Shown here piece by piece: positions 11,745-52,431 of a stretch of DNA of 64,000 bases (the first letter of the stretch is position 1; each line of letters begins with the position of its first letter). The position numbers and the translations under genes were made by a program. A model generated the notes under the pieces. That model saw nothing but the letters and a program-made list of their open reading frames with translations, did not search any database and was not told where the DNA came from. Where the stretch lies: IMG/VR virus record IMGVR_UViG_3300026966_000012, one strand, 5' to 3'. The stretch is from a virus (lineage: Duplodnaviria > Heunggongvirae > Uroviricota > Caudoviricetes).

Positions 11745-11746
11745 AG

Positions 11747-11908: not shown

Positions 11909-11909
11909 G

Positions 11910-12995: not shown

Positions 12996-13334
12996 ATGGA
13001 ACCGAAAAGTTCCCACCGAGCGGAGTACAGTGAGCCGCCCATCGAGCTGGCGAATGCCGTGCGACGCGGCGAGCACTACCTGCTGGGCGACGTTGGAGAG
13101 TTCGTGGTCGACGAGATCGCTGTTGGGTACCCAGTCGAGGAGCGAGACGGCGTGGTCGCCCCGAACCGCGAGGCGTTCGTCACGCGTATCGAGTTTGTGG
13201 CGCCGGGCGAGTGTATCGTGATGGGTCTTGCCGAGCTCGAGGACCGCATCGATCGAACCGATGTGTTGCCCCTGACCGTGCGCGAACGCGATGAGGAGCT
13301 GCACGCGGAGTGGGAGAGCCACGGGCTGCTGTAG
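12996..13334 (+). CDS. hypothetical protein, N-terminus MEPKSSHRAE
   Basis: ATG in hairpin TGGAACCGAAAAGTTCCCA + CCGAGCGGAG. Confidence 0.55.
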   Translation: MEPKSSHRAEYSEPPIELANAVRRGEHYLLGDVGEFVVDEIAVGYPVEERDGVVAPNREAFVTRIEFVAPGECIVMGLAELEDRIDRTDVLPLTVRERDEELHAEWESHGLL

Positions 13335-13344
13335 TCGAGGCGCA

Positions 13345-13378
13345 CCGCTGCGGTCCGCTTTTGCGCCGTGCCCCGCCG
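13345..13378 (+). terminator. conserved cassette terminator motif
   Basis: GGTCCGCTTTTGCGCCGTGCCCCGCCGCTCG. Confidence 0.45.
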
Positions 13379-13438
13379 CTCGTCGCTGCTATTACCGGTA
13401 CGCTGACACTTATACTTGCACGAGTGGTAGGTAGAAGT

Positions 13439-13630
13439 ATGGTCAGAAACGACCACCCGAACGGAGAGCTGAGCGAGTACCAGAAGGCGAACGAGCTGAG
13501 CGACGACGAGTTGCGACAGCGCGTGATCGAGCTGCGGAGCGAGCCCGCGCCGCTGGTGGGAGTGGACAGCGAGTTGGAAGCCGCCGAGGAGGTCGCGCGA
13601 GACCGCGGGCTCGGGCTGGGGATGAGCTGA
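13439..13630 (+). CDS. hypothetical protein (63 aa), N-terminus MVRNDHPNGE
   Basis: ATG in hairpin TGGTCAGAAACGACCA + CCCGAACGGAG; internal ATG (index 43) of track ORF 13310..13630. Confidence 0.45.
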   Translation: MVRNDHPNGELSEYQKANELSDDELRQRVIELRSEPAPLVGVDSELEAAEEVARDRGLGLGMS

Positions 13631-24192: not shown

Positions 24193-25836
24193 ATGCCCAC
24201 AGCGAACCTCCTGAACACGAAGGCCGGCAAGTTCGGCCAGGTCCCCGGCGCCGCCTCTCGCGCTCGCATGTCCGAGCTCGTCGAGGGGAAAGGTGCGATC
24301 GACCTTCGCGACTACCAGTCCCACTTCGAGCAAGCGTTCGACGATCCCGTCGAAGCACAGATCAAGTTCGAGAACTGGTGTTGCCGAGTCAAAGACACGC
24401 TGATCTCGTCGTCGGGTATCGATCTCCGACCATACCAGAAGGAGTTCTCCGATCGCATCATCAAGTCCGTCGTTCGGAATGATGGACAGACGTTCTTCGC
24501 CGAATGGGCTCGTCAGAGTGGAAAAACGGAGACACTGGCCTCGACGGCCTACGCGGTGTCTGTCCTGTTTGCCCCGATCCGCATCGGTATTTTCGGTCCG
24601 AAGCAGCGACAGGCGCAGATCATGTGGGACCGCGTGAAAGAGCGGTACAACCAGGAGGTTCTCGACGGACTTGGGCTCGAGATCGAGAAGTATGGGGGAA
24701 ACACGTTCAAGCTCTCCTCTGGGTCCGTGGTTCAGGCGATCACGGCTGGCTCGGGGAACATTGAGGGGGAGACATTCGACCTGATCCTCATCGACGAGAC
24801 GCAGAAGATCAGCCGCCGGATGCTCCTTGCGGAGATCTGGCCGATGGGGGCGGAGACCAACGCGACGAAGTGTTGTATCGGAACGCCGCACTTCCAGGAC
24901 TGCTGGTTCCGAGAGCAGCTGGAGCGGCTGAAGGGCACGCCGTTCTGTATGATATACGACTGGCGGACGCCGGCGAAATACTCGAAGAACTACCGGAAAT
25001 CGATCGCCCGCCAGCTGGAGCAGATGAGTCCGGAGTCCGAGGAGTTCCGCACACAGTACGAGCTCGAGTGGATTCTGGAGTCGGGGATGTTCATCACGAT
25101 AGAGGACTGGCGCCGGATGAACCCGCCGCCGCTCATGACCCCGGTCGTGACGAAAGAGGAGCTGTACGACAGCGAGATCAACTCGAAGTGGCAAGTGAGA
25201 GCGGGCGTCGACCTCGCGAAAGAACACGACTCGACTGTTCTGACGGTCACTGGCAAATACTTCGGGTCGTGGGAGCCATACTGGGATGGCTTCTCGGAGG
25301 AGACGATCGTACTCCTCGACGTGGTCGAATTGGAGGGCCTCGAGTACCCGGACCAGATAGACATCATTCAGGAGGAACTGGACCGATGGCACGCCGACGT
25401 GCTTGGAGTGGACTCGACTGGTGTCGGCGACCCGGTGACAGATATCCTGAAGCGAGAGCTGAACCAGCACGTCGAGGGCATCAAGTTCACGTCATCGAGC
25501 AAGCACGACCTGTACAAACACGTCGAGCGGAAGGTGAAGGTCGAGGAGGAATGGGACTACTGCAACTTCGTGATCCCAAAGAAGGTCCGCTCCTACCCAC
25601 ACCTGGAGGTGTCGATGCGGAAGATGGAAGAACAGTGGTTGGAGCTGACGAAAGAGTACAAAGGGTCACGCATGAGTGTTGAGGGACCGGATAGCGGGCA
25701 CGACGACTACCCGGACAGTGCAGCCCTCTCCATGTGGGTGCAGGACGCCGACTACAACATCGACGAGAAGCACATGACCTCGCCAACCCCAGTCCTGGGG
25801 ACGATGAACGGCATCGGGGCGAAGATCGGGTACTGA
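24193..25836 (+). CDS. terminase large subunit
   Basis: Walker A ARQSGKTE, Walker B LILIDETQ, C-terminal nuclease region GVDSTGVGD; 547 aa. Confidence 0.9.
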   Translation: MPTANLLNTKAGKFGQVPGAASRARMSELVEGKGAIDLRDYQSHFEQAFDDPVEAQIKFENWCCRVKDTLISSSGIDLRPYQKEFSDRIIKSVVRNDGQTFFAEWARQSGKTETLASTAYAVSVLFAPIRIGIFGPKQRQAQIMWDRVKERYNQEVLDGLGLEIEKYGGNTFKLSSGSVVQAITAGSGNIEGETFDLILIDETQKISRRMLLAEIWPMGAETNATKCCIGTPHFQDCWFREQLERLKGTPFCMIYDWRTPAKYSKNYRKSIARQLEQMSPESEEFRTQYELEWILESGMFITIEDWRRMNPPPLMTPVVTKEELYDSEINSKWQVRAGVDLAKEHDSTVLTVTGKYFGSWEPYWDGFSEETIVLLDVVELEGLEYPDQIDIIQEELDRWHADVLGVDSTGVGDPVTDILKRELNQHVEGIKFTSSSKHDLYKHVERKVKVEEEWDYCNFVIPKKVRSYPHLEVSMRKMEEQWLELTKEYKGSRMSVEGPDSGHDDYPDSAALSMWVQDADYNIDEKHMTSPTPVLGTMNGIGAKIGY

Positions 25837-29634: not shown

Positions 29635-30654
29635 ATGCAAGCTGTTGTAGATGCAACTGGAAACGCACCCAGCCTCGCACCCCTGAACGCGCGCCGCTCT
29701 CGATTCAGCCTCCCAGTCGCTGGAGAGACGATCATCGAGCGCGTCGTAAGCGGGCTCGTCGATATCGGTGTTGAACGGATCGCGATTGTCACGGACGAAG
29801 ACTCCATCCGGACGATCTTCGGCGCTGAGCGCGGTGTCGATCGGCTCGGCATGGAGGACGTCGAACTGTGTTTCATCCCGCACTACTACGGCGACACAGC
29901 GTCGAAGACACGCGGTCTGGCGGAAGACACTGGCTTCCTGTGGGTCCGTGGCGATACACTCTACGACTGGGAGACGATTGCCCAACTCGCCGAGCACGAT
30001 GCGGCACTCGGATACGTCCCTCACCCGCACGAGGCGGCCCACGGGAAGCTCCAGATCAACGGTGACGACCTGCGCGCATCGCCCGGCGAATACACACACT
30101 CTGGGGCACACCTGGCCTACGCGTACAAGTTCCCACCCCGAGCTCACGAGTGGGACTACGGAATCGATCCGATGACAGAGGAACTCGCCACGGAGCCCGG
30201 CACAGAGGAGGTCTCGATTCGCTGGACGCCGATCACGAACCCGAGAGACTATCTGCAAGCGAACCTCGAGCGGGCCGGTGCTGGTGGTAGTGAGATGTCG
30301 GTCGATGGAACACTGGTCGGACCCTGCGTGATCGGAGAGGACGTGACCGTCGGACCGGGTGCTGTGGTCGAATCGTCTGTGCTCCTGGACGGTGCGACTA
30401 TCGGTGCCGGATCGTACGTTGGATACTCAGTGGTCGACGAGGGCGTCACTATCGAACAGAACGTGACGACGAATACGCGAGCAGCCAGTGGGGAAACGGT
30501 CGTCGCAGAGTTCGGCGGCGAACGGGTAGACACTGGGATGACGGAGTTCGGGACAGTCTTCGGCCCAGGGGTGACGGTTCAGGCCGGGGCGACGGTCATG
30601 CGCGGGACCACGATCGACACGGGACTGACTGTTGATCCTGGGGAAGTTCGCTGA
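29635..30654 (+). CDS. sugar-nucleotidyltransferase-like protein with a C-terminal hexapeptide-repeat (left-handed beta-helix) domain
   Basis: N-terminal NTP-transferase-like fold; hexapeptide repeats GPCVIGEDVTVGPGAVVESSVLLDGATIGAGSYVG. Confidence 0.65.
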   Translation: MQAVVDATGNAPSLAPLNARRSRFSLPVAGETIIERVVSGLVDIGVERIAIVTDEDSIRTIFGAERGVDRLGMEDVELCFIPHYYGDTASKTRGLAEDTGFLWVRGDTLYDWETIAQLAEHDAALGYVPHPHEAAHGKLQINGDDLRASPGEYTHSGAHLAYAYKFPPRAHEWDYGIDPMTEELATEPGTEEVSIRWTPITNPRDYLQANLERAGAGGSEMSVDGTLVGPCVIGEDVTVGPGAVVESSVLLDGATIGAGSYVGYSVVDEGVTIEQNVTTNTRAASGETVVAEFGGERVDTGMTEFGTVFGPGVTVQAGATVMRGTTIDTGLTVDPGEVR

Positions 30655-31562: not shown

Positions 31563-32444
31563 ATGAACGAACGTGCGCAGTCAGCGGCTGGGCCGATTGC
31601 GGTCGTGGTCCTGGTCGGTGCCGTTATCCTTGTCGGAGTTGGTCTCGCGTCGATGCAGACAGTCGACGAGGGACACGTCAAAGTGGTCACCTACAAAGGC
31701 AACGCCGAAGGGACGTTCTACCCCGGCAACTGGTATTTCATCAACCCGATCACGCAGGGGACCGTGTCGGTCGACGTTCGGCCACAGGTGATGCAGATGG
31801 TTGCTGCACAGGGAGAAGGCGAGCGTTCCGAGTTCGACGACTCGATCAAAGTAGTGACTAACGACAACATGCGAGTGCCAGTTGACGTTGCGATCACCTA
31901 CCAGGTCGACGACCCGGTCACCTTCTATGAGGAGTGGAAGACTCACGACCAGGCCCGACAGCGGGCGATCCGACCTGGGTCCCGGGCCGCCATCTACACC
32001 GTTGGTGGTGGGATGTCCGGTACCGAGATCACCAACGACGAGGCACGAGAGCGGATGCGCCTCGCTGTTGCTGAAGAACTGGAAGACCGGTTCGACGGGA
32101 CGGGGCTCGCTCTGATCGCTGTCGACATCCGTGGCGTGTACCCACCCGACTCGTTCCTGGATGCGGCCGAGAACGCCCAGGCCGAGCGTCAGGAGATCAT
32201 CGCTGAACAGCACCGACAGGAAGTTGCCAGAGAGCACGCAGAAACGCTCCGTATCGAAGCCGAAGGTGAGCGAGACGCCCGCCTGATCCGCGCCGAAGCG
32301 TACGAGAACGACGCTGTCCTCGAAGCGATGTACATCGACGAGCTCAGCGAGTCCAACGTGATCTACGTACCGGTCGGTAACGATGGCGTGCCACTGTTCA
32401 TGGACGTCAGCGACGACGAGAACAGTACAAGCGGGAGTCCGTAA
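31563..32444 (+). CDS. SPFH/band-7 (prohibitin/stomatin-like) membrane protein
   Basis: N-terminal TM segment; SPFH domain with a coiled-coil EA-rich tail. Confidence 0.85.
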   Translation: MNERAQSAAGPIAVVVLVGAVILVGVGLASMQTVDEGHVKVVTYKGNAEGTFYPGNWYFINPITQGTVSVDVRPQVMQMVAAQGEGERSEFDDSIKVVTNDNMRVPVDVAITYQVDDPVTFYEEWKTHDQARQRAIRPGSRAAIYTVGGGMSGTEITNDEARERMRLAVAEELEDRFDGTGLALIAVDIRGVYPPDSFLDAAENAQAERQEIIAEQHRQEVAREHAETLRIEAEGERDARLIRAEAYENDAVLEAMYIDELSESNVIYVPVGNDGVPLFMDVSDDENSTSGSP

Positions 32445-32788: not shown

Positions 32789-33601
32789 ATGCAAATCAAA
32801 CAAATCGCAGGCACGCCGCACCCCGAGCGACTGGTGAGTCTGTGTGCACGAAACGACTATCGAGCTGATGGCGTCATCGACCACTCATTCGCCGAGATCA
32901 TGGCGGGTGTGAAAGTGGACGACGACGTCGTCGACGATCTCCGTGAGGAGTGGTTTGACGACGACGATGTTGCACGGGACGACCCGTGGGATGCGATGCC
33001 AGCCGAGTTCAGAACAGAAGCAGAACAACGATCGCTCCTCAAGCATACCATGAACGAGGGCCACTGGGGCGTGTTCGAGCACCCACAGGCGACGCTCGCG
33101 CTCGAGGGTATCACCCGGACATCGATGGCGCAGATCACGCGCCACCGACACTTCACGTTCGACATCATGTCCCTCCGATACGTCACACTCGACTTCGACT
33201 CGGTCGAGGAGATGAAGGAGCGATTCGCCGAGCCTGATGAGATCACGGCCGAGGAGGTCGTGAGTCGGAACGGCGTCGAGACCATCGACATGGACCCCGA
33301 CGAGCGCGAGGAGATCTGGTGGGAGACGATCGCCCACACCGCCCACACCTACAACACACTCGTGGACGCTGGCGTCCCTCAGGAAGAAGCGCGCAAAGTC
33401 CTCGGTATGGGAACGAAGGTCAACATCATGATGTCTGGGAACGCCCGGGCCTGGATGCACCTTCTGAACATCAGAGGGAAAGCGAACGTCCAGGGAGAGG
33501 CCCGAAACATCGCTGACGGCGTGATGGGCGAGATGAAGGAGTGGATGCCGTACACGTTCGAGCGGTACGACGACATGCTCCCACTGAGACTGAACCCATG
33601 A
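32789..33601 (+). CDS. thyX: FAD-dependent thymidylate synthase ThyX
   Basis: ThyX signature RHRHFTFDIMSLRY (RHRxxSxxxxSxRY-like). Confidence 0.85.
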   Translation: MQIKQIAGTPHPERLVSLCARNDYRADGVIDHSFAEIMAGVKVDDDVVDDLREEWFDDDDVARDDPWDAMPAEFRTEAEQRSLLKHTMNEGHWGVFEHPQATLALEGITRTSMAQITRHRHFTFDIMSLRYVTLDFDSVEEMKERFAEPDEITAEEVVSRNGVETIDMDPDEREEIWWETIAHTAHTYNTLVDAGVPQEEARKVLGMGTKVNIMMSGNARAWMHLLNIRGKANVQGEARNIADGVMGEMKEWMPYTFERYDDMLPLRLNP

Positions 33602-34670: not shown

Positions 34671-35411
34671 ATGGCCTCGGTAAAGGAACTGTTCAGGTGG
34701 CACATGGGCCTCAAAGCAGATATCGCGGAGATGGCGGAGAGTCTGGAGGTTGAGAACCCTGACGAACTGGTGAGACAGCTGCGCGACGACGGATACCCGA
34801 TTAGAGACGACGACCCAGACTACGGAACAATGGCAACCACGCAAGACACAGAAACTGACGGACAGAACGATGAACACCCCCTCGCGACGGAGAAAAACAG
34901 TCTCAAATCTGTTGACAACCTGAACGAGATCTACGCGGACCTGGAGACGAGGGACGATTACCCATACGACGAAGTTCCATCGAAAGAGCTGTTGAAGCGA
35001 CTCCTGCACTACTGGGGGTTGAAAAAGATCCATGCGGCTGGTATCCTGGAGGAGAAGTCGTCAGCAATCAGCACGTACACGGAAGCGTACGGCTTAAAGA
35101 GAGCGTGGAACGATCCTGACGCGATCCAGCGTGCGATCGACAACGGAGATACGGTTCATGAGCTCGCCGAGCGATGGGTTATCAGTGAGTCCACGTTGAG
35201 AAAAGCCATCGACAAGTACGACATCCGCACGATGTCGCTCATGGTCGCCTACTCGGAAATCATCGAAGCAGGAGACGTGATACTCGAGCAGACGGACAAC
35301 CCCGAGTTGGAAGAACAGCTTCGACAGGTGATCACGACTGTGAAAGCGGAGAGAGGGATGGAAAGTAGTGAGATCGGACAAAAGACAGTTGTAGAGGCTG
35401 AGGCCGAATGA
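34671..35411 (+). CDS. HTH-containing protein (paralog)
   Basis: DTVHELAERWVISESTLRKAIDKYDI. Confidence 0.5.
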   Translation: MASVKELFRWHMGLKADIAEMAESLEVENPDELVRQLRDDGYPIRDDDPDYGTMATTQDTETDGQNDEHPLATEKNSLKSVDNLNEIYADLETRDDYPYDEVPSKELLKRLLHYWGLKKIHAAGILEEKSSAISTYTEAYGLKRAWNDPDAIQRAIDNGDTVHELAERWVISESTLRKAIDKYDIRTMSLMVAYSEIIEAGDVILEQTDNPELEEQLRQVITTVKAERGMESSEIGQKTVVEAEAE

Positions 35412-35725
35412 GTACCGAGCGGTATGAGGAGTCTTCGGTCGGTGAGCCGAACATCCTCGAAGAAGCCAACGACACGGTCGGTCAGCGGGCCGAGGAGTAC
35501 GGGCCGCCGACTGAGAACTTCCGGTGCATCGCCGACATGTGGTCTGGATACCTCGGCATCGAGGTGACGCCGTACGACTACGCGATGCTCATGCAGCTCG
35601 CGAAGATCGGGCGCACCAAGACCGGTGGACCTGACCGGGACACGCACGTCGACATCCCGGGATATGCGCTCACGGCCGATCTCGTCAATCAGGACGGGTC
35701 GGAGCCAGGGCCGTACCTCGGCTGA
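35408..35725 (+). CDS. hypothetical protein
   Basis: 105 aa. Confidence 0.5.
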   Translation: MSTERYEESSVGEPNILEEANDTVGQRAEEYGPPTENFRCIADMWSGYLGIEVTPYDYAMLMQLAKIGRTKTGGPDRDTHVDIPGYALTADLVNQDGSEPGPYLG

Positions 35726-36986: not shown

Positions 36987-37238
36987 ATGACCGCAGATAC
37001 CCAGTCTACCAGCACCGGGTCTACCGAGAACCGGGAGCTGATGAGAGTGGACGTGCTCGCTGAGGACGGGCACCTCCACGAGTTTCGCAATGTCGTCGAT
37101 GCGCACGAGCGTGGCGACGGCGTCCAAGTAACGTATCTCGACGACGGTGAGGAAATCGTCGAAACCGTGGGCGAGATGGGTGGGCGCATCGTGTGCGCAC
37201 TCATACCGGCCAGGTACGGGGGACAGAGCGATGATTGA
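36987..37238 (+). CDS. hypothetical protein
   Basis: Internal ATG (index 143) of track ORF 36558..37238; GGACGGAG box before the ATG. Confidence 0.45.
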   Translation: MTADTQSTSTGSTENRELMRVDVLAEDGHLHEFRNVVDAHERGDGVQVTYLDDGEEIVETVGEMGGRIVCALIPARYGGQSDD

Positions 37239-37488
37239 CCCGGTCCACCTGGTGGTCCTCGACGGTGAGTGTGACGTGTTCGAGGACGGCTACGGGATTC
37301 AGCCGGCGCACCGCGTCGCCGTGACCGACTATTACGGTGACTTCGAGTTCCCTGGCTCGGAGGTGTATTCAACGGCCATCAAAGCGCACGGCGCCAACGG
37401 GATCGTCTACATCCGAGAGTCTGATATCAACTACATCGTCGACCTGTCTGACGACGAGTTCCGACCCGTCGGCGAGGAGAGTGCGTGA
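37231..37488 (+). CDS. hypothetical protein
   Basis: Internal ATG of track ORF 37147..37488. Confidence 0.45.
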   Translation: MIDPVHLVVLDGECDVFEDGYGIQPAHRVAVTDYYGDFEFPGSEVYSTAIKAHGANGIVYIRESDINYIVDLSDDEFRPVGEESA

Positions 37489-38009
37489 CCATGACTGATG
37501 ACTTTGTCCCTGTCCGCCGCGAGGTCGCCGAGCTTGCCGCCCAGGAGCTGTTCGAACAGGCGGAGTACACAGACGTCCCAGAACAATCGGACCGCCGTGA
37601 GCGGCTGCTGGAGGCCGCAGAATCGATCACAGTATCAGTCAATGGCGACCACGATGGGAAGCTCAGTCACCCGGACAGAGAGACGTGCGTCCGAGAGGAG
37701 GTGTTTCTCGAGGAAGACCCAACTGACGAGTACCTGGACGAGGCCGGGTGGAACGTCGTCTACAACTGTCCGATGTGTGGCCGGCGTTACGAATACTTCT
37801 ACGGGTTCGAGGGCATCTACGACACGGAGACGAAGCGGTACATTACGTCAGAGTCGTTCGACCCCTCGTGGGAGTGGGACGAAGAAGACGGGTACCACGA
37901 TGGACAGTGTTTCTCAATCCCCGCCACCGACGACGCCCGGTACGAACGGGTGTACATCATGGATGGGCTGTACGACCCACTCGATCACGAACAGATCTGG
38001 AGTGCCTGA
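37485..38009 (+). CDS. zinc-finger protein
   Basis: CPMCGRRYEY. Confidence 0.5.
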   Translation: MTMTDDFVPVRREVAELAAQELFEQAEYTDVPEQSDRRERLLEAAESITVSVNGDHDGKLSHPDRETCVREEVFLEEDPTDEYLDEAGWNVVYNCPMCGRRYEYFYGFEGIYDTETKRYITSESFDPSWEWDEEDGYHDGQCFSIPATDDARYERVYIMDGLYDPLDHEQIWSA

Positions 38010-38695
38010 TGGCGGTTACGACACAGGTCCCGACAACACTCGCCGACTGGTACCACCAGCACGACTACGGCGCCGTGCAGGACCGGCTCGCCACTGTCCG
38101 AGACGTCACGCTCGACGGTGAGATCGAGCAGGCGGCCGAGAACATCCGGCGAGCTTACCACTTCGCCGTCCTCTCGATTCGGACGGTCAAAGACATCCAC
38201 GAGCATGCGTTCGACCTATGGATGGACGGCACTGCGCTTGAGGACGCAGTACGCATCGCCGGCGTCAACTTTTACCGGAACAAAGTCGGTTGGATTCGAC
38301 AGACTGAGGAGTCGGTTCACTGGAAGGGGCTTGTTCGGAGTGTTCGAGAACACGTCGCCCGTGACGAGCTCGGCTCACTCATGGACCTGAACGAACGACT
38401 GTCCGGTGTCCACTACGCGAAGTGGGGCTTCACACTCGCACTGTCCGGTGTGTGGGAAGTGATCTGTATCGATAGCAACGTCAAGAATCACTACGGGATC
38501 GACGGGCGACTCGATCTTCGGTCGAACGATGGGATCGACACCTACCGTGAGATGATCGACCGTGTGGTGCGCGACGTGCCCGGCGACGTCCCGCCGTTTG
38601 TCGCGCAGTGGGTGGTGTACGATTACCAGCGCGGTGAACACGCCACGCACGACCCGTACTTCGAATCGGCCTACCCGTTCGCGGAGGGTGTCTGA
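38009..38695 (+). CDS. hypothetical protein
   Basis: Internal ATG (index 87) of track ORF 37748..38695. Confidence 0.5.
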   Translation: MAVTTQVPTTLADWYHQHDYGAVQDRLATVRDVTLDGEIEQAAENIRRAYHFAVLSIRTVKDIHEHAFDLWMDGTALEDAVRIAGVNFYRNKVGWIRQTEESVHWKGLVRSVREHVARDELGSLMDLNERLSGVHYAKWGFTLALSGVWEVICIDSNVKNHYGIDGRLDLRSNDGIDTYREMIDRVVRDVPGDVPPFVAQWVVYDYQRGEHATHDPYFESAYPFAEGV

Positions 38696-39696
38696 TGGAC
38701 ATCGACGAGATCTACGAGCAAGAGATTGACGCTCGCGAAGACATCGTCGAGGCGTGTCCCATCGACATCTACGTCGCGTCGATCAACCCCTACTGGGCAT
38801 ACCCGAACAAGCTGATGTCGTACTACGAGACGCGGCCCGGCGTTCGTGATTCGTGTCGCCAGGTGATCGTCGACTCTGGGAAGACGCGTATCGGTAACAT
38901 GAGCGAGATCATCCAGGCGGCTATCGACATGGATGCTGACCAGGTGATACCGCCGGACCCGACGCCATACACAGACGGGTACGACGAGCTCACGCCCCAC
39001 GGCCACGCCGAGGAACAGGCACAGCACTACTGGGAGTGGTATCGAGAAGACGTCGACGGGACGATTTTGCTCCCGATCCACCCGCCGTATCAGCGGTTTA
39101 TTGAGGAGCTCGGTCGGTGGGACCCTGGGCACATACTCGGGTACGAGGACGACCCGTACTTCGACTACCCGAGTACGCCTGAAGCTGAAGAACGCTACCT
39201 CGCCGGTGTCGAGCACTACTCGCTCACGTACGACCTGATCGGTGCCGCCGATGGCGTTGCGGTCGGGAGCCTCCTGGGCCTCGACGTCTTCGAGCAGATC
39301 ACGGCACTCAAGCAAGTACGAGAGGCGGTCGGGCCGTACAAACACGTCCACGCACTTTCGCCGACCCCTCGGCCCGAGATGCTGCTGTTTCTCCGGCGAA
39401 ACCCTGGGATTATCGACTCACTCGACCTGTCGACGCCCGAGACGGCGCCGGCTGGGAACAAGCTTCCCGACCTGCGGTTCTATCCGCAGATGAAGTACCT
39501 GTTCCCACCAGCCCATGCGAACATCAGCCCCGTCAGAGGTGCAGCGTCGACGATGATCGCGCTCATGCTCAACTTCTGGCTGAGTGAGTGGGTCAAAGAG
39601 GAGGAGTTGATGGAGATGCTCGAGGAGCACTACGACTGGGTCGAGCGTGAGCAGACCGCCCAGACCGGCCTGGAGGCGTTCGGACATGGCGACTAA
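38695..39696 (+). CDS. TGT/DpdA-like protein, degenerate paralog
   Basis: VIVDSGKTRIG (degenerate DSGG box); C-terminal half aligns with the 39686 ORF. Confidence 0.4.
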   Translation: MDIDEIYEQEIDAREDIVEACPIDIYVASINPYWAYPNKLMSYYETRPGVRDSCRQVIVDSGKTRIGNMSEIIQAAIDMDADQVIPPDPTPYTDGYDELTPHGHAEEQAQHYWEWYREDVDGTILLPIHPPYQRFIEELGRWDPGHILGYEDDPYFDYPSTPEAEERYLAGVEHYSLTYDLIGAADGVAVGSLLGLDVFEQITALKQVREAVGPYKHVHALSPTPRPEMLLFLRRNPGIIDSLDLSTPETAPAGNKLPDLRFYPQMKYLFPPAHANISPVRGAASTMIALMLNFWLSEWVKEEELMEMLEEHYDWVEREQTAQTGLEAFGHGD

Positions 39697-40915
39697 CCTC
39701 GTCGACGACGGTCATCGTCCCACGCCGGAACGAGACACGTTCCGTCACGTCTGGGCGAGAGAACGCGGGCCCTGGGTCGTCCTTGAGCGCATCAAAGGGA
39801 CGCGAATGGAGAGCGGTGAGATCGTCGCTGAGTGCGATGACTACCTGGAGGCACTCGCGTTCGCTGTCGATTCCGAGACAGAGGACTGGGTTATCACGGA
39901 GATCGCTGGTCAGTGCTGCAACTGTGGACAGCTGGTTGTCGTCGACGAGCTCGCTGAGGAGCCGACGTGTCCACACTGCAACGACGTCCTCTGGCTGGCC
40001 GCCGAGCAGCGACGGTTGGCCGAGTTTGCCCGCGACCGGCTGGCGTTCGATATGTACTGGGGTGTTGCCTCTGGCGCACAGCGGAAAGCGATCCGTGTCC
40101 TTGCGCACGGATTCGACCATCGCGAGCCAGACAATCTCAACATCATGCTGAACTACGCGACGCAGAATAATCAGCTCCTGACCGAGAAGGGACTGGAGCT
40201 CATGACGAACGTCGAGACCCTGTTTATCGACTCTGGCGGCTACTCGTTCTTCGAGCGAGAGGGTGGATACGACACTTCAGACTGCGAGTACCTGCGATAC
40301 ATCGCCCGCGTGCAACCTGATTACTTCGCACTCAGGGATTACCCGTGTGAGCCTGACATCCTGGATGCACGCGACACGACCGTCCAATACCACCAGCAAC
40401 GGACGACAGAGAAAGCCCAGATCCTGCTCGATATGCTTGATGACTTTGCGATCACGGCCACACCAGTTGCGGTCGTGCAGGGGTGGTCGCCCGATGATTA
40501 TCGGTCACACCTCCGGCAACTCTATCGCGCTGGTGTCCTCGACGAGGTGGAGCACATCGGCATTGGGACCCTCTGTGGTCGCGAAGACGTTGCCCAGATC
40601 GCGACCATCGTCGAGGCCGTCAGAAAGAGTGTTGGACCGGACTTCAAAATACACGGGTTCGGTGTCAAGCGAGAGGCGTTAGAACGCCCGGACGTCGTCG
40701 AGTCACTCGACTCGGCCGACACACTCGCGTACAGCATGAAGCCGATGTACGATTCAATCGCTACTGGTGGTATGGTCGCGAACACGTGGAAACACGAAGC
40801 GCGAGGGTTCCTGGATTACTATGCCACGATCCACGAGTCGCTCAGACGAATCGAGCACGGGGAAGCCGACGAAGATATAGTCGCCCAACAGACGCTTGCA
40901 TCATATGGTGACTGA
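39686..40915 (+). CDS. tRNA-guanine transglycosylase (TGT)/DpdA-like protein with an N-terminal zinc ribbon
   Basis: FIDSGGYSFFE matches the TGT substrate-binding box DSGG[FY]Q; CCNCGQ...CPHC. Confidence 0.5.
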   Translation: MATNLVDDGHRPTPERDTFRHVWARERGPWVVLERIKGTRMESGEIVAECDDYLEALAFAVDSETEDWVITEIAGQCCNCGQLVVVDELAEEPTCPHCNDVLWLAAEQRRLAEFARDRLAFDMYWGVASGAQRKAIRVLAHGFDHREPDNLNIMLNYATQNNQLLTEKGLELMTNVETLFIDSGGYSFFEREGGYDTSDCEYLRYIARVQPDYFALRDYPCEPDILDARDTTVQYHQQRTTEKAQILLDMLDDFAITATPVAVVQGWSPDDYRSHLRQLYRAGVLDEVEHIGIGTLCGREDVAQIATIVEAVRKSVGPDFKIHGFGVKREALERPDVVESLDSADTLAYSMKPMYDSIATGGMVANTWKHEARGFLDYYATIHESLRRIEHGEADEDIVAQQTLASYGD

Positions 40916-41046: not shown

Positions 41047-42099
41047 ATGGAAGACGGACCAGATACGCATGACGTCCCCGGGCACGACCGGGCGACAGGC
41101 ATCGACGACCCCGTACCGGACCGCGAGTATGGGGACCAGGACCACCGGCCTGAGGACGAGGTCGATCCCGCCGAAGACGACCGCTACACGATGGAGGACG
41201 AGTACGCGGTGGATGAGGTCGGCGGATATGGTTCCAGCAAACACTACGGCACGTACTGTGCGTTCGACTTCGCACAGGCGGCGGAACAGGCTCAGGATGA
41301 GCACCCCGCTCTCGACCTGGGCCTCGTCCATGTGACTCACCTGGAAACGGGAGAGACGCAGCATGTAGAGCTCGAGCCCACGGGACAGGACCCAGACGGA
41401 ACGGTCGACGTGGCCACGGACACGGTTGAGCTCGAAGGCGAGATCGGAACGCTCGAGCCCGACGTTGACGAGGAGGAGATGGAGAGAGTCAACGACTCAC
41501 TCGAGGACTGGATAACGACACTGGAGCTGAACGCGTTCCTCGAGACCTACGACTACCTGTGGGCCGAGTATCCGGTCGACGATGGGGAGGACGTTGTCTA
41601 CGTCGTTCCGGATGCAGAACGGTCGTTCACGAACAAGGAGGAGCTCGCATACTTCATCCACCAGCTCGAACAGTACCCGAAGCAGGTGAGCGTCAGGGCA
41701 CAGGTGCAGTGTCGCTTTGACCTGATGCTGGCGTCGCCGGATAGCGACCCGGAAACAGCCGCGAATGATCAGGTCGCATCGGCAATCGAATCAGTGGGCG
41801 TCACAGTTGACGGCGTGAACGTGATCGACGTCGAAGATGTCCCCAAGTATCCTGAGAGTGAGCAGGCCGACGTGGAAGACCCGATCCCAGACATCGGCGA
41901 CACTATTCGATTCATCCTCCCCGGAGATGGTGTCGAACGCGATGGTGTTGTCAAAACGGTTCGCGGGTTCGACGGCGATATCGAGATCGAGGTGGAAACC
42001 GCGGACAAGAACAATCAGACGTACGTCTCTCCAGAGCACATCACGAGTGTCCAGCCAGCTGATGATGCTGACACGCCCGATCACGAGGTGTTCAACTGA
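41047..42099 (+). CDS. hypothetical highly acidic protein
   Basis: ATG after a hairpin + CGTGGAACGGAG box; upstream part of the track ORF looks non-coding. Confidence 0.45.
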   Translation: MEDGPDTHDVPGHDRATGIDDPVPDREYGDQDHRPEDEVDPAEDDRYTMEDEYAVDEVGGYGSSKHYGTYCAFDFAQAAEQAQDEHPALDLGLVHVTHLETGETQHVELEPTGQDPDGTVDVATDTVELEGEIGTLEPDVDEEEMERVNDSLEDWITTLELNAFLETYDYLWAEYPVDDGEDVVYVVPDAERSFTNKEELAYFIHQLEQYPKQVSVRAQVQCRFDLMLASPDSDPETAANDQVASAIESVGVTVDGVNVIDVEDVPKYPESEQADVEDPIPDIGDTIRFILPGDGVERDGVVKTVRGFDGDIEIEVETADKNNQTYVSPEHITSVQPADDADTPDHEVFN

Positions 42100-47245: not shown

Positions 47246-50236
47246 ATGAGCCAACCAGACAGTAGTGTGCGCCTCCCGAAGAAGCAAACAACGGGAGCCA
47301 CGCTCGAAGACCGACTGACAGAGAACGCGTACCAGCGGATTATTCCACAGCGATACCTCAAGAAGGACGAGAACGGTGTGCCAACGGAGGAGCCAGAAGA
47401 CCTGTTCGAACGCGTGGCGAAGAACATCGCCATCGCTGAGGCGATCCACACGGACGAGACGGTGTGGATAGAACCCAGGCACATCAAGCCCGACCACCCG
47501 CGACGCGAGGACCTGATCCGCGAGGTATTCGACGACTACGGCATCGCTGATGCCGAGGGCATGGAGCCGACCACGGAACTGGACGAGGAGAACGCCAAGT
47601 GGGTCTCCTACGATACAATCATCGACGACCTCGACACTACCACCAGAAGCGTCGTCGAGGACACGAAAGAGCGGTTCCAGGATCGTATGGAGCGTCTGGA
47701 TTTCATCCCGAACAGCCCCACCCTCGCCAACGCCGGCGACGAGCTCCAGCAACTCAGCGCATGTTTCGTGATGTCCCCGGAAGACGACATCGCTGACATC
47801 CACGACACGCTTCGTGATGCTGCGCTGACGTTCCAGTCGGGAGGCGGCGTTGGGTATGCGTTCAGCTACCTTCGACCCTACGGTGACCGTGTCGGCTCGA
47901 CTGGTGGTATCGCATCGGGCCCGCTCACGTTCATGCGGACCTACGACCAGATGTGCCGGACGATCGCCCAGGGCGGGATGCGCCGCGGCGCGCAGATGGG
48001 TGTGATGCGAGTCACGCACCCTGACGTGATCTTCTTCATCCACTCGAAGAACAAGGACGTCTCACTCGCGCAGGCCCTCCGTCTGAACGACCCGAAGGAC
48101 TACGTAAACTCGTCGTACGGGGAAGCCCTCGAAGAAGCCCGCGACACACTCGAGCGGTTCACTGACGACGAAGGACGTCTCGAACCACACCTCCGAAACG
48201 CTGTCGAGGCACAGCTCGCCAACTTCAACATCAGCGTGACGGTCACCGACGACTTCATGCTGGCCGTGGAGAACGACGAGCTCCACACGTTCATCAACCC
48301 GCGCACTGGACAGCCCCACATCGCGACCGAGGAGACCAAAGAGATGTACGAGTGGTTCGACCTGGGTCACCACGTCACTGTGGGAGAGCCACTACGTGTC
48401 CCGGCTCGCGAGATCTGGGATGACATCATCGAAGGTGCGCACGAGAACGGCGAACCAGGGGTGCTGTTCATCGACAGTGCGAACGCGGACCACTCGTTCC
48501 CGACGGAATCGACGCCGACATGGCGCGACGACGATCAGTTCGAGATGTCGACGACCAACCCCTGTGGCGAGCAATGGCTCATGGAGAACGAGGCGTGCAA
48601 TCTGGGCCACATAAACCTCTCGACGCTTGTGGCCGAGGATGCACCCGACTGGCGAACGTACCTCGACACATACGGCGCCCCGAGTGGGTACGAACCCGAC
48701 CGGTCTGAGATGGCATACGTCGTTGGTGATTTCCTCGAGAAAGCCATCGACTGGGAGGAGCTCGACGCCCGCGTCGACGACGGCGTTCGGTTCCTCGACA
48801 ACGTCGTCACCATGTCGTCATTCCCCACCCCGGAGATCGAACAGACAGTACGGGATAACAGGAAGATAGGACTCGGGATCATGGGACTGGCCCAGATGTT
48901 CGTGCAGATCGGGACCAAGTACGGGAGCGATGTCTCGAACGAAGTGACCAGACAGGTGATGCGCCACATCAACCAGCGGTCGAAAGACGCATCGCTACGT
49001 CTGGCTGACCAGCGTGGGTCGTTCGAAAACTGGGAGCACTCGAAGTACGCCGACCCGACCGCCCACACAGACTGGTTCGAGCGCCAGACTGGAGAGGCGG
49101 CCGACGTCTGGGAAGATGGCTACCCGATACGGAACCACAACACGACCACAGTGGCGCCGACTGGGACAACTGGAATGATCGGAAACACGAGCGGTGGATG
49201 TGAACCGATCTTCGGTGTTGCACACTTCAAAAACGTCTCTCAGGACATCCAGGGAGACGAGCAGCTCGTTGAGTTCGACGACTATTTCCTCCGTGTCCTG
49301 GAGGCTAACGACGTCGACGTCGAAGCGGCGAAGACAGAGTGTCTCGAGCAGATGCAAGCCAACGAGTTCGAGGGTGTGAAGGGGCTCGAAACGGTCCCGG
49401 ACGAGATCGGCGAGCTATTCGTCACCACGGACATGCTCAGTGGCCTCGAGCACGCGTCTGTCCAGTGTGCCGCCCAGGAGGGCGTGGACAGTGCGATCAG
49501 CAAGACCGTCAACTTCCCCAACAGCGCGACCAAACAGGACGTGCAGGAAGTGTACGCGTACCTGTGGAGCCACGGAGCCAAGGGAGGAACGATCTACCGC
49601 GATGGGTCCCGTTCGAAGCAAGTGATCTCAACCAGAGCTGATCACGGAGACGTGGCCGGCGGAGAGCCCATGTCGCGAGAGGACGCTGAGGCTCGAATCG
49701 ACGAGCTCGCAGAGGAACACGGTATCCCACTGGCCGCCGCTGAGCAACCCGCTACTGGTGGTATCGAGCTGGCTGAGCCGGGCAAGGTTCTGTCTGCTCG
49801 ACGCGAGCGCATCAAGACGGGATACGGGAACATGTACGTCAACATCGGGTTCGACGACGAGGGTCGCCCCATCGAGACGATCTGCAACATCGGGAAGTCG
49901 GGCGGGTTCACCAACTCGATGGTCGAGGCCATCGGCAAACTGTCGTCGCTGGCACTCCAGGCTGGCGTTCCAGCCGAGGAAGTAGTCGAGAAACTCGACG
50001 GCATCTCCTCGCCGGACATCGGGTTCGACGATGGTGAGCAGATAGCCTCACTCCCGGACGGTATCGCCACCGCACTTCGTCGTGCGGTCGAGGCCGAGAG
50101 TGAAGCGACACTCGAGATCAAAGCCCACAACGATCACAACCCGAACGAGGAGTCCTGTCCGGACTGTGGCGGCGACGTCGTTTACGACGGTGGGTGCCCG
50201 AAGTGCGCCCTCGAGTGTGGTTGGTCGAAGTGCTGA
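47246..50236 (+). CDS. nrdJ: class II (adenosylcobalamin-dependent) ribonucleotide reductase
   Basis: 996 aa; active-site TTNPCGEQ; C-terminal zinc ribbon CPDCGG...CPKCALECGWSKC. Confidence 0.85.
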   Translation: MSQPDSSVRLPKKQTTGATLEDRLTENAYQRIIPQRYLKKDENGVPTEEPEDLFERVAKNIAIAEAIHTDETVWIEPRHIKPDHPRREDLIREVFDDYGIADAEGMEPTTELDEENAKWVSYDTIIDDLDTTTRSVVEDTKERFQDRMERLDFIPNSPTLANAGDELQQLSACFVMSPEDDIADIHDTLRDAALTFQSGGGVGYAFSYLRPYGDRVGSTGGIASGPLTFMRTYDQMCRTIAQGGMRRGAQMGVMRVTHPDVIFFIHSKNKDVSLAQALRLNDPKDYVNSSYGEALEEARDTLERFTDDEGRLEPHLRNAVEAQLANFNISVTVTDDFMLAVENDELHTFINPRTGQPHIATEETKEMYEWFDLGHHVTVGEPLRVPAREIWDDIIEGAHENGEPGVLFIDSANADHSFPTESTPTWRDDDQFEMSTTNPCGEQWLMENEACNLGHINLSTLVAEDAPDWRTYLDTYGAPSGYEPDRSEMAYVVGDFLEKAIDWEELDARVDDGVRFLDNVVTMSSFPTPEIEQTVRDNRKIGLGIMGLAQMFVQIGTKYGSDVSNEVTRQVMRHINQRSKDASLRLADQRGSFENWEHSKYADPTAHTDWFERQTGEAADVWEDGYPIRNHNTTTVAPTGTTGMIGNTSGGCEPIFGVAHFKNVSQDIQGDEQLVEFDDYFLRVLEANDVDVEAAKTECLEQMQANEFEGVKGLETVPDEIGELFVTTDMLSGLEHASVQCAAQEGVDSAISKTVNFPNSATKQDVQEVYAYLWSHGAKGGTIYRDGSRSKQVISTRADHGDVAGGEPMSREDAEARIDELAEEHGIPLAAAEQPATGGIELAEPGKVLSARRERIKTGYGNMYVNIGFDDEGRPIETICNIGKSGGFTNSMVEAIGKLSSLALQAGVPAEEVVEKLDGISSPDIGFDDGEQIASLPDGIATALRRAVEAESEATLEIKAHNDHNPNEESCPDCGGDVVYDGGCPKCALECGWSKC

Positions 50237-51831: not shown

Positions 51832-52431
51832 TTAGAGCAGGTTGTCGACGACAGTTAGTGTTCGGGTGGTGAGTTCGTCGAGCCCACGATTGTTTTGTAC
51901 GACGGCGTCTGCACGCTGGAAGTAGTCCCTGACCCCCGCATCGTGCTCGCGATCGGTCCGTTCGCGCAAATATCGAGCACTGTCGATGGGGTCCTCGCCC
52001 CCTTTCCCCCTACCCTCACGGGTTGCAAACCACCTAACACGGTCGCCGAAGGTCGCGTCGACCCACACAACGTGTGCCTCAATGTCTAACTCGGCCGCGA
52101 GGTAGTCAACTTCGGCGGGATTCCGGGTCCCTTCCAGGACAACGACATCGGACTCGTCGAGATGCTCGCGGATGGGGCCGGTGCAGGGAACGGCCACTCC
52201 ATACTCACCATGCTCCTCTCTGAGAGCTTCGGCGTAGGCCCACACTTCATCCTCGTCGCTCGACTCCATGGCTTCTCTGAGCGTCTCACCCATGCTCACG
52301 ACTGGAAACCCCTGTTCTCCCAGGAGTTGAGCGGCTGTGCTTTTCCCACTTGCCGGATATCCCGCGAGTGCTATGATAGTCATCATGATATGTAATATAT
52401 CCCGAAACAAGAACATTGCGCTCACTACCAC
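51832..52431 (-). CDS. P-loop nucleotide kinase (adenylate/dNMP kinase-like); only minus-strand gene
   Basis: Walker A AGYPASGKST; start probably at MMTII (52386). Confidence 0.6.
   Translation of the reverse strand: MVVSAMFLFRDILHIMMTIIALAGYPASGKSTAAQLLGEQGFPVVSMGETLREAMESSDEDEVWAYAEALREEHGEYGVAVPCTGPIREHLDESDVVVLEGTRNPAEVDYLAAELDIEAHVVWVDATFGDRVRWFATREGRGKGGEDPIDSARYLRERTDREHDAGVRDYFQRADAVVQNNRGLDELTTRTLTVVDNLL

What the first reader, a model, noticed from the sequence alone, without database searches (positions are those of the whole stretch)
38695..40915. Two paralogous TGT/DpdA-like proteins: candidate 7-deazaguanine DNA hypermodification
ORF 39686..40915 has FIDSGGYSFFE, matching the tRNA-guanine transglycosylase substrate-pocket box DSGG[FY]Q, plus an N-terminal zinc ribbon. 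ORF 38695..39696 shares the C-terminal half (LLGLDVFEQITALKQVREAVGPYKHVHALSP versus TLCGREDVAQIATIVEAVRKSVGPDFKIHGFGV) but has a degenerate DSGK box. The genes overlap by 11 nt and are co-transcribed. DpdA-type TGT homologues in phages and haloviruses insert preQ0/preQ1/archaeosine-type bases into DNA to evade restriction. A duplicated pair, one possibly catalytically altered, would be a variation on that theme. No QueC/D/E or FolE genes are seen in this window, so the base may be scavenged from the host.
Basis: partly seen in the sequence, partly recalled or inferred. Interest (0 to 1): 0.75.

Follow-up and report, generated by a model that had tools for sequence, protein, structure and literature searches.

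The report
Two different DpdA-type enzymes in halovirus
A large virus of salt-loving archaea carries, back to back, two distantly related enzymes of the kind that swap guanine in DNA for a 7-deazaguanine base, and it has no genes to make that base, so it probably uses the host's supply to shield its DNA from restriction enzymes.

Summary
ORF B (39686-40915) is a clear member of the DpdA family (Pfam PF23859, 71.7 bits against a cut-off of 27). It carries an N-terminal CxxC...CxxC zinc ribbon. ORF A (38695-39696) matches no curated family. Profile comparison (98% probability, E 8e-14), a TGT-like predicted fold and aligned catalytic residues place it in the same superfamily.

- **A is not degenerate.** D60, D88 and D244, the counterparts of the three catalytic aspartates of Salmonella DpdA, are conserved in 60-61 of 61 family members.
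- **The pair is not a duplication.** A belongs to a separate haloarchaeal family of about 180 clusters. That family includes the annotated but untested "DpdA" of Halorubrum virus HRTV-29. Close relatives of this virus carry A without B.

No preQ0 synthesis genes are found in the window, nor in a complete 149-kb relative, the Halobaculum halophilum "plasmid". Most likely both enzymes are independent DNA-guanine transglycosylases that use host preQ0 and differ in target motif or in base. This is a new variant of a known anti-restriction theme. Interest is moderate, and it can be tested in a cultured strain.

The parts
38009..38695 (+). Gene X: conserved 228-aa protein of unknown function. Its stop overlaps the ATG of ORF A (TGATG).
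   Evidence: Called as a 228-aa gene on other contigs. It is 85% identical in L013 and 61% in L005/L006, always directly upstream of the A homologue. It is absent from the Halobaculum plasmid and from L004. No Pfam, PHROG or PDB hit. dN/dS is 0.085. It is unrelated to DUF6884.
38695..39696 (+). ORF A: 333-aa transglycosylase-like protein of the TGT/DpdA superfamily, of the HRTV-29 gp33 type.
38872..38880 (+). ORF A D60-S61-G62: the DSG motif with the predicted general acid/base Asp.
   Evidence: D60 is conserved in 61/61 and S61 in 57/61 family members. The motif aligns with D182-S-G of ORF B. The equivalence to Asp95 of Salmonella DpdA is inferred from the motif (PMC10164549).
38956..38958 (+). 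ORF A D88: predicted base-binding Asp.
   Evidence: Conserved in 60/61 members. It aligns with D218 of ORF B, which is invariant in 28/28.
39079..39081 (+). ORF A H129: predicted base-recognition residue (Q in most of the family).
   Evidence: The family has Q in 53 and H in 7 of 61 members. It aligns with Q265 of ORF B. Q265 aligns with the H of 'VAHGW' in 7ui4, which is His181 by my own count of chain positions with an offset of 20 (PMC10164549).
39415..39426 (+). ORF A D241-S-L-D244: the DSxD motif with the predicted nucleophile Asp (D244).
   Evidence: D244 is conserved in 61/61, S242 in 59/61 and D241 in 53/61 members. The motif aligns with D342-S-A-D345 of ORF B.
39686..39696 (+). The 11-nt overlap of ORF A and ORF B.
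   Evidence: Sequence GGACATGGCGACTAA. The same overlap is present in L013, L017 and L018.
39686..40915 (+). ORF B: 409-aa DpdA-family DNA-guanine transglycosylase homologue.
   Evidence: Pfam PF23859 DpdA at E 6.6e-20, 71.7 bits against a cut-off of 27. PHROG 1279 at 2e-28. PADLOC DpdA at 1.3e-8. 94 homologues were found, nearly all carrying PF23859.
39914..39979 (+). ORF B N-terminal zinc ribbon (CCNC-x14-CPHC).
   Evidence: Both CxxC pairs are conserved in P0008. The zinc-ribbon family matches are below threshold.
40205..40741 (+). ORF B DpdA catalytic domain (residues 174-352). It contains DSGG (40229-40240), D218 (40337-40339), Q265 (40478-40480), H323 (40652-40654) and DSAD (40709-40720).
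   Evidence: Extent of the Pfam match. D182, D218, H323 and D345 are invariant in 28/28 members. D345 aligns with the Asp of 'SIDS' in 7ui4. By my count of chain positions with an offset of 20, that Asp is the nucleophile Asp256 (PMC10164549).
41047..42099 (+). Gene DN: conserved, very acidic 350-aa protein. It follows the A gene, or the A-B pair, in all syntenic relatives.
   Evidence: tblastn hits in L013, L007, L005/6 and L004. The start is taken from the gene calls. No family hit.

Best explanation
The window is part of a haloarchaeal tailed virus of about 150 kb. Between its thymidylate synthase and ribonucleotide reductase genes it encodes two independent base-exchange enzymes of the TGT/DpdA superfamily.

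ORF B is a canonical DpdA. [quoted passage not shown] D182 then activates an incoming 7-deazaguanine base, which replaces the guanine. The N-terminal zinc ribbon may help bind DNA.

ORF A belongs to a different, older DpdA-like family, the HRTV-29 gp33 type. It keeps the same catalytic set (D60, D88, H129, D244) and is predicted to do the same chemistry on its own.

The virus has no FolE, QueD, QueE or QueC, so the base is most likely host preQ0, which haloarchaea make for archaeosine in tRNA. Having two enzymes most likely widens the set of guanine contexts that get modified, or adds a second base. Either would give resistance to more host restriction systems.

Shown here: homology, family membership, conserved catalytic residues, gene arrangement, absence of synthesis genes, and purifying selection. 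Inferred: DNA as the substrate of A, preQ0 as the base, division of labour between A and B, and the anti-restriction role.
For: - **B is a DpdA.** Pfam, PHROG and PADLOC all hit it. Its catalytic residues are invariant across 28 homologues and align to the solved DpdA 7ui4. PMC10164549 gives the catalytic roles of those residues.
- **A is homologous to B.** A has a TGT/DpdA-like predicted fold and conserved catalytic positions.
- **The A family contains HRTV-29 gp33**, which is annotated DpdA.
- **The A family is linked to DNA.** In three other elements it sits next to or near DUF6884, a YaaA-like protein predicted to bind DNA and flip bases (PMC11701544). This points to DNA rather than tRNA as its substrate.
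- **A and B act independently.** A occurs alone in L001, L004, L005, L014, L016, L024 and HRTV-29. B-type genes occur alone widely.
- **A and B co-occur a second time** in a different arrangement, in Halorubrum pallidum (L026).
- **No preQ0 genes** are found in the window or in the whole 148.9-kb relative.
- **There is precedent.** Virus DNA can be modified by a virus-encoded DpdA alone, using the host's preQ0 (PMC6884629, PMC8651126).
- **Both genes are under purifying selection** (dN/dS 0.06 and 0.08).
Against: - No chemistry was measured.
- Phages that encode only a DpdA can show no modification (Orion) or trace modification (7-11, 0.02% of G) (PMC6884629).
- A matches no curated DpdA or TGT model.
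- The stacking aromatic residue after DSGG (Y186 in B) has no conserved equivalent in this subclade of A (DSGKTR), so its pocket may take something else.
- Bacterial DpdA needs the ATPase DpdB. No such partner lies in the window.
Confidence: 0.55

Rival explanations
1. One of the two enzymes, more likely A, is a tRNA-guanine transglycosylase. It would serve the virus's own large tRNA set, for instance by inserting preQ0 at position 15 as arcTGT does. Only the other enzyme would modify DNA.
For: The complete relative encodes 31 tRNA genes. The TGT superfamily is ancestrally a tRNA enzyme family. Five of 61 members of the A family give weak hits to Pfam TGT, and none hits the DpdA model.
Against: No PUA domain or arcTGT C-terminal domain was detected in A or B. 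The A family also occurs in the small virus HRTV-29 (36.6 kb), next to the portal gene. HGTV-1, which carries many tRNA genes, gave no match to A or B in the searches of the phage collection. The A family is associated with DUF6884, a predicted DNA-binding protein.
Confidence: 0.12
2. A and B form an obligate heterodimer like eukaryotic QTRT1/QTRT2, with A as a non-catalytic or regulatory subunit.
For: The genes overlap by 11 nt and are translationally coupled. The pair is conserved in three lineages and co-occurs again in L026. TGT enzymes work as dimers (PMC6884629).
Against: A keeps every catalytic residue, with 60-61 of 61 conserved, unlike QTRT2. A occurs without B in the closest syntenic relatives and in HRTV-29. 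B-type proteins mostly occur without A.
Confidence: 0.07
3. A has left base exchange on nucleic acids. It could be a protein-modifying TGT-like enzyme, as Cap10 of type IV CBASS is, or a DNA glycosylase or anti-defence enzyme that removes rather than inserts a base.
Confidence: 0.08
4. The genes are present but have little effect. Modification would be absent or at trace level, because precursor supply or a missing partner limits the reaction.
For: Mycobacterium phage Orion, which has only a DpdA, is unmodified. Salmonella phage 7-11 has 0.02% dADG (PMC6884629). Attempts to show activity of DpdA3 and DpdA4 in E. coli failed (PMC10516641).
Against: Both genes are under strong purifying selection and their catalytic residues are invariant. 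By general knowledge, not tested here, haloarchaeal hosts make preQ0 for archaeosine, unlike Orion's host.
Confidence: 0.1

Closest known systems
Phage DpdA (the 'DpdA1' group: phage 9g, CAjan, Mycobacterium phage Rosebush; Pfam PF23859)
   Same: ORF B scores above the Pfam threshold and hits the phage family PHROG 1279. It shares 25-32% identity with the DpdA of mycobacteriophages and of a Methanofastidiosa virus. It has the same DSGG, D, Q and DSxD residues.
   Different: B has an extra N-terminal domain of about 125 aa with a zinc ribbon. Only some halophile homologues have an analogous extension. The virus carries no preQ0 genes, whereas Rosebush and CAjan carry the whole pathway (PMC6884629).
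HRTV-29 gp33 'DpdA' (Halorubrum tailed virus 29, genus Dpdavirus)
   Same: It is in the same HMM family as ORF A (205 bits). Like ORF A, it has no Pfam hit and sits in a haloarchaeal tailed virus with no preQ0 genes. It was proposed to use host preQ0 (PMC8651126).
   Different: gp33 is shorter (243 aa) and only distantly similar to ORF A: tblastn with ORF A itself did not find it. It is paired with a DUF6884 gene rather than with gene X or a second DpdA. It has not been tested experimentally.
DpdA4 (HVTV-1 gp69, HF2; Pfam DUF6610)
   Same: Specific to archaeal viruses, found as a singleton in many haloviruses, and a remote TGT homologue. Its four invariant residues D163, D190, H263 and D287 line up with D60, D88, H219 and D244 of the A family.
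   Different: Neither ORF A nor any of 61 family members hits DUF6610, while HVTV-1 gp69 scores 190.8 bits. The profile-profile probability is only 35%. The A family is much closer to PF23859-type DpdA (98%).
Bacterial Dpd system (DpdA with the ATPase DpdB, then DpdC)
   Same: The same predicted double-displacement chemistry. B aligns with the solved Salmonella DpdA around the nucleophile.
   Different: B scores 36.5 bits against the NCBIfam DpdA equivalog, whose cut-off is 200. There is no DpdB, DpdC or restriction genes dpdD-K nearby. A ParB-N protein exists in the relative's genome, but about 87 kb from the A-B pair.
Eukaryotic QTRT1/QTRT2 and the archaeal arcTGT/ArcS paralogue pairs
   Same: Two TGT-superfamily paralogues act in one pathway.
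   Different: In those pairs the second paralogue has lost transglycosylase catalysis or has gained the ArcS C1 domain. ORF A keeps the catalytic residues, and neither A nor B contains a PC-x3-KPY motif or gave a Pfam match other than DpdA/TGT and weak zinc-finger hits.

Membership tests
DpdA, Pfam PF23859 (ORF B) | HMM score above the curated gathering threshold | tested here: met
   71.7 bits against 27, E 6.6e-20, residues 174-352.
DpdA, Pfam PF23859 (ORF B) | Three active-site aspartates (Asp95, Asp130 and Asp256 of Salmonella DpdA) and the base-recognition residue (His181) | tested here: met
   D182, D218 and D345 are invariant in 28/28 homologues, and Q265 in 27/28. Q265 and D345 align directly with the H of 'VAHGW' and the D of 'SIDS' in 7ui4. 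I equate these with His181 and Asp256 by counting chain positions with an offset of 20. The mapping of the first two Asp rests on the DSG and RDYP motifs. Residue roles are from PMC10164549.
DpdA, Pfam PF23859 (ORF B) | Exchange of guanine in DNA for preQ0 or a derivative | not testable with these tools
   Needs a biochemical assay or LC-MS/MS of DNA.
Bacterial DpdA equivalog, NCBIfam NF041059 (ORF B) | Score above the equivalog cut-off, and a DpdB ATPase partner | tested here: not met
   36.5 bits against a cut-off of 200. No ParB-like gene was found in the window ORFs scanned.
DpdA, Pfam PF23859 (ORF A) | HMM score above the curated gathering threshold | tested here: not met
   No Pfam hit at E <= 1. 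None of 61 family members hits PF23859.
TGT/DpdA superfamily (ORF A) | Significant profile-level homology to a bona fide DpdA family across the catalytic core | tested here: met
   hhalign gives 98.1% probability, E 8e-14, over 148 columns. The A-family HMM hits ORF B at 4.7e-12.
TGT/DpdA superfamily (ORF A) | TGT-like (beta/alpha)8 barrel | tested here: met
TGT/DpdA superfamily (ORF A) | Catalytic Asp, Asp and Asp-nucleophile positions retained | tested here: met
   D60 in 61/61, D88 in 60/61 and D244 in 61/61 members. Q/H129 in 60/61 and H219 in 61/61.
HRTV-29-type DpdA-like family (ORF A) | Same HMM family as HRTV-29 gp33 | tested here: met
   Against the A-family HMM, ORF A scores 284 bits and gp33 scores 205 bits (E 9e-65). 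gp33 gives no hit to the B-family or DpdA4 HMMs.
DpdA4 / DUF6610 (ORF A) | Match to PF20314 | tested here: not met
   No hit for ORF A or for any of 61 relatives, whereas HVTV-1 gp69 scores 190.8 bits. hhalign against a DpdA4 profile gives 35% probability.
tRNA-guanine transglycosylase, Pfam PF01702 (A and B) | Score above the gathering threshold, plus tRNA-recognition modules (PUA and C-terminal domains for arcTGT) | tested here: not met
   B scores 15.4 bits against 26.3. A has no hit. No PUA domain was detected.
ArcS / ArcS2 (ORF A) | C1 domain (DUF5591) with the PC-x3-KPY-x2-S-x2-H motif | tested here: not met
   ORF A had no Pfam hit at all. Neither translation contains a PC-x3-KPY motif. 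The motif is taken from PMC10516641.
QTRT2-like non-catalytic partner (ORF A) | Loss of the catalytic residues and obligate co-occurrence with the catalytic paralogue | tested here: not met
   The catalytic residues are retained. A occurs without B in L001, L004, L005, L014, L016, L024 and HRTV-29.

The most novel reading that the evidence does not exclude
The HRTV-29-type family, which includes ORF A, is a sixth and functionally distinct DpdA subfamily. Its members would insert a different base, or act in a different DNA context, from canonical DpdA. This virus would then carry two chemically or positionally distinct guanine replacements, both made from host precursors. The recurrent partners of the family (DUF6884, or gene X here) would be accessory base-flipping or base-supplying factors of a new DNA base-exchange module.
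Probability: 0.2. Interest if true: 0.7.

Novelty: new variant of a known kind. Interest (0 to 1): 0.5.

Why it matters
DpdA is treated as the signature gene for 7-deazaguanine in viral DNA, and five subfamilies have been described. This locus adds three points:

- **A poorly covered family.** A sizeable haloarchaeal DpdA-like family, with about 180 clusters at 50% identity, is missed by Pfam, PHROGs, NCBIfam and PADLOC. Its only annotated member I found in a cultured virus is HRTV-29 gp33.
- **Two subfamilies in one virus.** A single virus can carry two different DpdA subfamilies side by side. I found no description of this in the papers I read.
- **A whole virus lineage with tRNA genes and no preQ0 pathway.** It would depend on the host's archaeosine precursor pool.

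If both enzymes are active, the pair is a natural experiment on how DpdA enzymes divide sequence or base specificity. The cultured strain Halobaculum halophilum Gai3-2 carries the same pair on a 149-kb element, so the question can be tested directly.

Tried and rejected
- **DNA search of phage genomes.** blastn of the locus against phage genomes found no match.
- **tblastn with ORF A.** tblastn of ORF A against phage genomes found no match. The link to HRTV-29 appeared only when distant family members were used as queries.
- **PDB sequence search.** A search with the ORF A profile gave only noise.
- **The search for related loci.** The 6-sequence alignment found one IMG/VR contig.
- **Third homologous-protein search.** Run with the 61-sequence profile, it returned only 10 proteins because of the candidate cap.
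- **Wrong accession.** I fetched NC_021328 from memory expecting HVTV-1, but it is HGTV-1. The correct record is KC117377.
- **DpdA4 membership of ORF A.** Rejected.
- **ArcS and QTRT2-like readings.** Rejected; see the membership table.
- **Gene X.** I suspected a helix-hairpin-helix glycosylase from reading the sequence, but no tool supported this. It is also unrelated to DUF6884.
- **DUF6884, ParB-N and DUF8048 homologues in the window.** None found.
- **Second structure prediction.** Not used, because no fold-search jobs remained.
Full report
**What the window is.** All large ORFs are on the + strand and encode very acidic proteins. Pfam identifies:
- a T4-type large terminase (24193-25836);
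- a DUF3383 protein, taken here as the tail sheath (59561-60916);
- ThyX (32789-33601);
- a class II ribonucleotide reductase (47246-50236);
- an NDP-sugar synthase, an SPFH protein and a haloarchaeal HTH_10 regulator.

The locus is about 71% identical at the DNA level to the circular 148,857-bp "plasmid unnamed3" of Halobaculum halophilum Gai3-2, and the gene order is the same. That element encodes terminase, tape measure and baseplate proteins, a family B DNA polymerase and 31 tRNAs. It is therefore a large tailed-virus genome. An IMG/VR contig carries ORF A at 95% identity. The window is thus part of a haloarchaeal tailed virus or provirus of about 150 kb.

**The observation.** ORF A (38695-39696, 333 aa) and ORF B (39686-40915, 409 aa) exist as described and contain all the quoted peptides. 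They overlap by 11 nt. They close a chain of overlapping genes: 37147-37488, 37485-38009, X at 38009-38695, then A and B. The junctions are of the TGATG type. There is no T-run inside the chain, and a 131-nt AT-richer spacer comes only after B. Gene callers on independent metagenome contigs chose the same starts. Against the IMG/VR relative, dN/dS is 0.085 for X, 0.059 for A and 0.077 for B. All three are therefore real genes under selection.

**ORF B.** It matches Pfam DpdA (PF23859) at 71.7 bits against a cut-off of 27. It also hits PHROG 1279 ("queuine tRNA-ribosyltransferase") at 2e-28, and PADLOC DpdA. The tRNA enzyme model PF01702 reaches only 15.4 bits, below threshold. The bacterial DpdA equivalog reaches 36.5 bits against a cut-off of 200. 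tblastn finds DpdA genes of about 400 mycobacteriophages and a few other phages at 25-32% identity. Ninety-four homologues, nearly all carrying PF23859, come mostly from hypersaline metagenomes and haloarchaeal genomes.

In an alignment of 28 of them, D182 (DSGG), D218 (RDYPCE), H323 and D345 (DSAD) are invariant, and Q265 is present in 27 of 28. The profile aligns Q265 and D345 with the H of 'VAHGW' and the D of 'SIDS' in the solved Salmonella DpdA (7ui4). By my count of chain positions, these are His181 and the nucleophile Asp256. PMC10164549 describes Asp95 as the general acid/base and Asp130 and His181 as base-binding. It reports that alanine substitutions of the nucleophile Asp and of Asp95 abolish exchange.

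The first 125 residues or so are an extension with two CxxC pairs (C77/C80 and C95/C98). These are conserved in the Halobaculum orthologue. Other halophile homologues carry different zinc-ribbon extensions. The matches to zinc-ribbon families are all below threshold.

**ORF A.** No Pfam, PHROG, NCBIfam or PADLOC model matches it. The word-indexed search found only six relatives. The exhaustive HMM search found 182 cluster representatives, 132 of them at E <= 1e-10. The members that carry names are all from Halobacteria: Halobaculum, Salinigranum, Halorientalis and Halorubrum. Of 61 members scanned, none hits PF23859 or DUF6610, and five hit PF01702 weakly.

The homology to ORF B is marginal for the pair (E 3e-4) but clear with profiles. 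hhalign gives 98.1% probability, E 8e-14, over 148 columns. An A-family HMM hits ORF B at 4.7e-12. The alignment pairs these residues of A and B:

| ORF A | ORF B | Motif or predicted role |
|---|---|---|
| D60 | D182 | DSG, general acid/base |
| D88 | D218 | base binding |
| Q/H129 | Q265 | base recognition |
| GxG | GxG | strand motif |
| H219 | H323 | conserved His |
| D241-S-x-D244 | D342-S-x-D345 | DSxD, nucleophile |

Conservation in the A family is D60 61/61, S61 57/61, D88 60/61, Q/H129 60/61, H219 61/61 and D244 61/61.

Together these results place A in the TGT/DpdA superfamily with an intact catalytic set. The "degenerate DSGK box" differs from the TGT consensus only after the Asp-Ser-Gly. 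Most of the family has I, F or Y at the position that is K in this subclade.

**Which known subfamily is A?**
- **Not DpdA4.** HVTV-1 gp69 scores 190.8 bits on DUF6610, while A and its relatives score nothing. A DpdA4 profile built from six haloviruses aligns with the A family at only 35% probability. Even so, the four invariant D/D/H/D positions of each family coincide. The B family shows no detectable similarity to DpdA4.
- **Not ArcS.** There is no C1-domain match and no PC-x3-KPY motif.
- **The HRTV-29 type.** Queries with two distant A-family members hit gp33 of Halorubrum tailed virus 29 (genus Dpdavirus), which is annotated "DpdA". gp33 scores 205 bits on the A-family HMM, nothing on the B or DpdA4 HMMs, and nothing in Pfam.

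Liu et al. (PMC8651126) noted this DpdA homologue in a virus without preQ0 genes and proposed that it uses the host pathway. I found no experimental test. ORF A is therefore a member of an annotated but uncharacterised DpdA-like family that current profile libraries do not cover.

**Is the pair a duplication?** No.
- X-A-B-DN occurs in the window, in the IMG/VR relative and on two other metagenome contigs.
- A-B-DN, without X, occurs in the Halobaculum element.
- X-A-DN, without B, occurs in L005/L006, where A is 53% identical.
- A-DN, without X or B, occurs in L004, where A is 47% identical.
- A stands alone in unrelated contexts in L001, L014, L016, L024 and HRTV-29.

B therefore looks like an addition between A and DN in one lineage. 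The two types also co-occur in a different arrangement on a Halorubrum pallidum contig. There they lie on opposite strands, 4.6 kb apart, with ParB-N, an N6 methyltransferase and DUF6884. This suggests the combination is useful rather than accidental.

In HRTV-29 and L016 the A-type gene overlaps a DUF6884 gene, and L026 has one 4.5 kb away. Pfam's curators predict that DUF6884 is a YaaA-like protein that binds DNA and flips bases (PMC11701544). This is circumstantial support for DNA as the substrate of the A family. The window has no DUF6884, and gene X is unrelated to it.

**Source of the base.** tblastn with HVTV-1 FolE, QueE, QueD, QueC and QueF found nothing in the window or in 139 kb of the Halobaculum element. 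The annotation of the whole 148.9-kb element lists no such gene. Haloarchaea insert preQ0 into tRNA through arcTGT (PMC10516641, introduction). That they synthesise it themselves is general knowledge and was not tested here.

The precedents are mixed:
- Phage 9g DpdA expressed alone in E. coli inserts host preQ0.
- Phage 7-11 carries 0.02% dADG.
- Phage Orion, whose host lacks the pathway, is unmodified (PMC6884629).

**Mechanism and rivals.** The best-supported reading is two independent DNA-guanine transglycosylases fed by host preQ0. They would differ in target motif or in base, and so broaden protection from restriction. The rivals are:
- one enzyme serves the virus's tRNAs, of which the relative has 31;
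- an obligate QTRT1/QTRT2-like heterodimer, which is contradicted by A's intact catalytic set and by its occurrence alone;
- a non-nucleic-acid or glycosylase role for A;
- little or no modification in practice.

None of these can be excluded without chemistry.

**Verdict.** B is an ordinary new member of DpdA with an unusual N-terminal zinc ribbon. A is a member of the HRTV-29-type family, which is poorly covered by profile libraries. Two different DpdA subfamilies coupled in one virus that lacks the preQ0 pathway is a new variant of a known anti-restriction strategy.

Noticed in passing
window 8300-13500: A repeated intergenic cassette occurs in at least 7 copies. Each copy has a GC-rich block, then an AT-rich TATA-like stretch (CAGCCGTCTTACATATCTATATAC), then AAGAAGTATGGGACAAAAATCCCACCC. 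In that last part the ATG of a small ORF sits inside a short inverted repeat (TGGGA-N5-TCCCA). The small ORFs that follow share N-termini of the type M-G/E-x-K-S/N-H/F-P (starts at 8772, 9991, 10761, 12407 and 12996). This looks like a family of co-regulated early genes with a hairpin at the start codon.
   Followed up: partly
window 38009-38695: Gene X is a 228-aa protein rich in invariant W, H and Y. It is translationally coupled to ORF A and conserved upstream of A in two lineages, but absent from others. No sequence family or PDB match was found.
   Followed up: partly
L028 5607-6732 (HRTV-29 gp32-gp33); L016 10001-11367; L026 5448-12176: A-type DpdA-like genes recur next to DUF6884, a YaaA-like protein predicted to bind DNA and flip bases. 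The two may form a two-gene module. No such gene is present in this window.
   Followed up: partly
L007-L009, L027 (NZ_CP058532.1, Halobaculum halophilum Gai3-2 'plasmid unnamed3'): This record is deposited as a plasmid but encodes terminase, tape measure and baseplate proteins, a family B DNA polymerase, RNR, ThyX, ParA and 31 tRNAs. It is syntenic with the window. It is evidently a large tailed-virus genome, carried as an episome or sequenced from virions. It offers a cultured system for testing the A-B pair.
   Followed up: partly
window 29635-30654; L008 31800-34068: The virus encodes an NDP-sugar synthase with a hexapeptide-repeat domain. Its complete relative also encodes GDP-mannose 4,6-dehydratase and a nucleotide-sugar dehydrogenase. 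These could serve glycosylation of the virion or of DNA.
   Followed up: no
L026 1-4197; L008 26939-27964; one search hits H38, H70, H71: ParB-N proteins lie near DpdA-type genes in Halorubrum pallidum. Some mycobacteriophages (Knocker, Rinkes, Funsized) match DpdA4 (DUF6610) within a gene annotated as a ParB-like nuclease domain protein. This recalls the need of bacterial DpdA for the ParB-like ATPase DpdB.
   Followed up: no
window 1994-3658, 31563-32444, 35408-35725, 51832-52431: Other auxiliary genes are present: a GHKL/MORC-like ATPase (HATPase_c_3), an SPFH/Band 7 protein, a DUF6378 protein and, on the minus strand, a P-loop kinase-like protein.
   Followed up: no
window 41047-42099: Gene DN is a very acidic 350-aa protein that always follows the A gene, or the A-B pair, in the syntenic relatives. 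No family match was found.
   Followed up: partly
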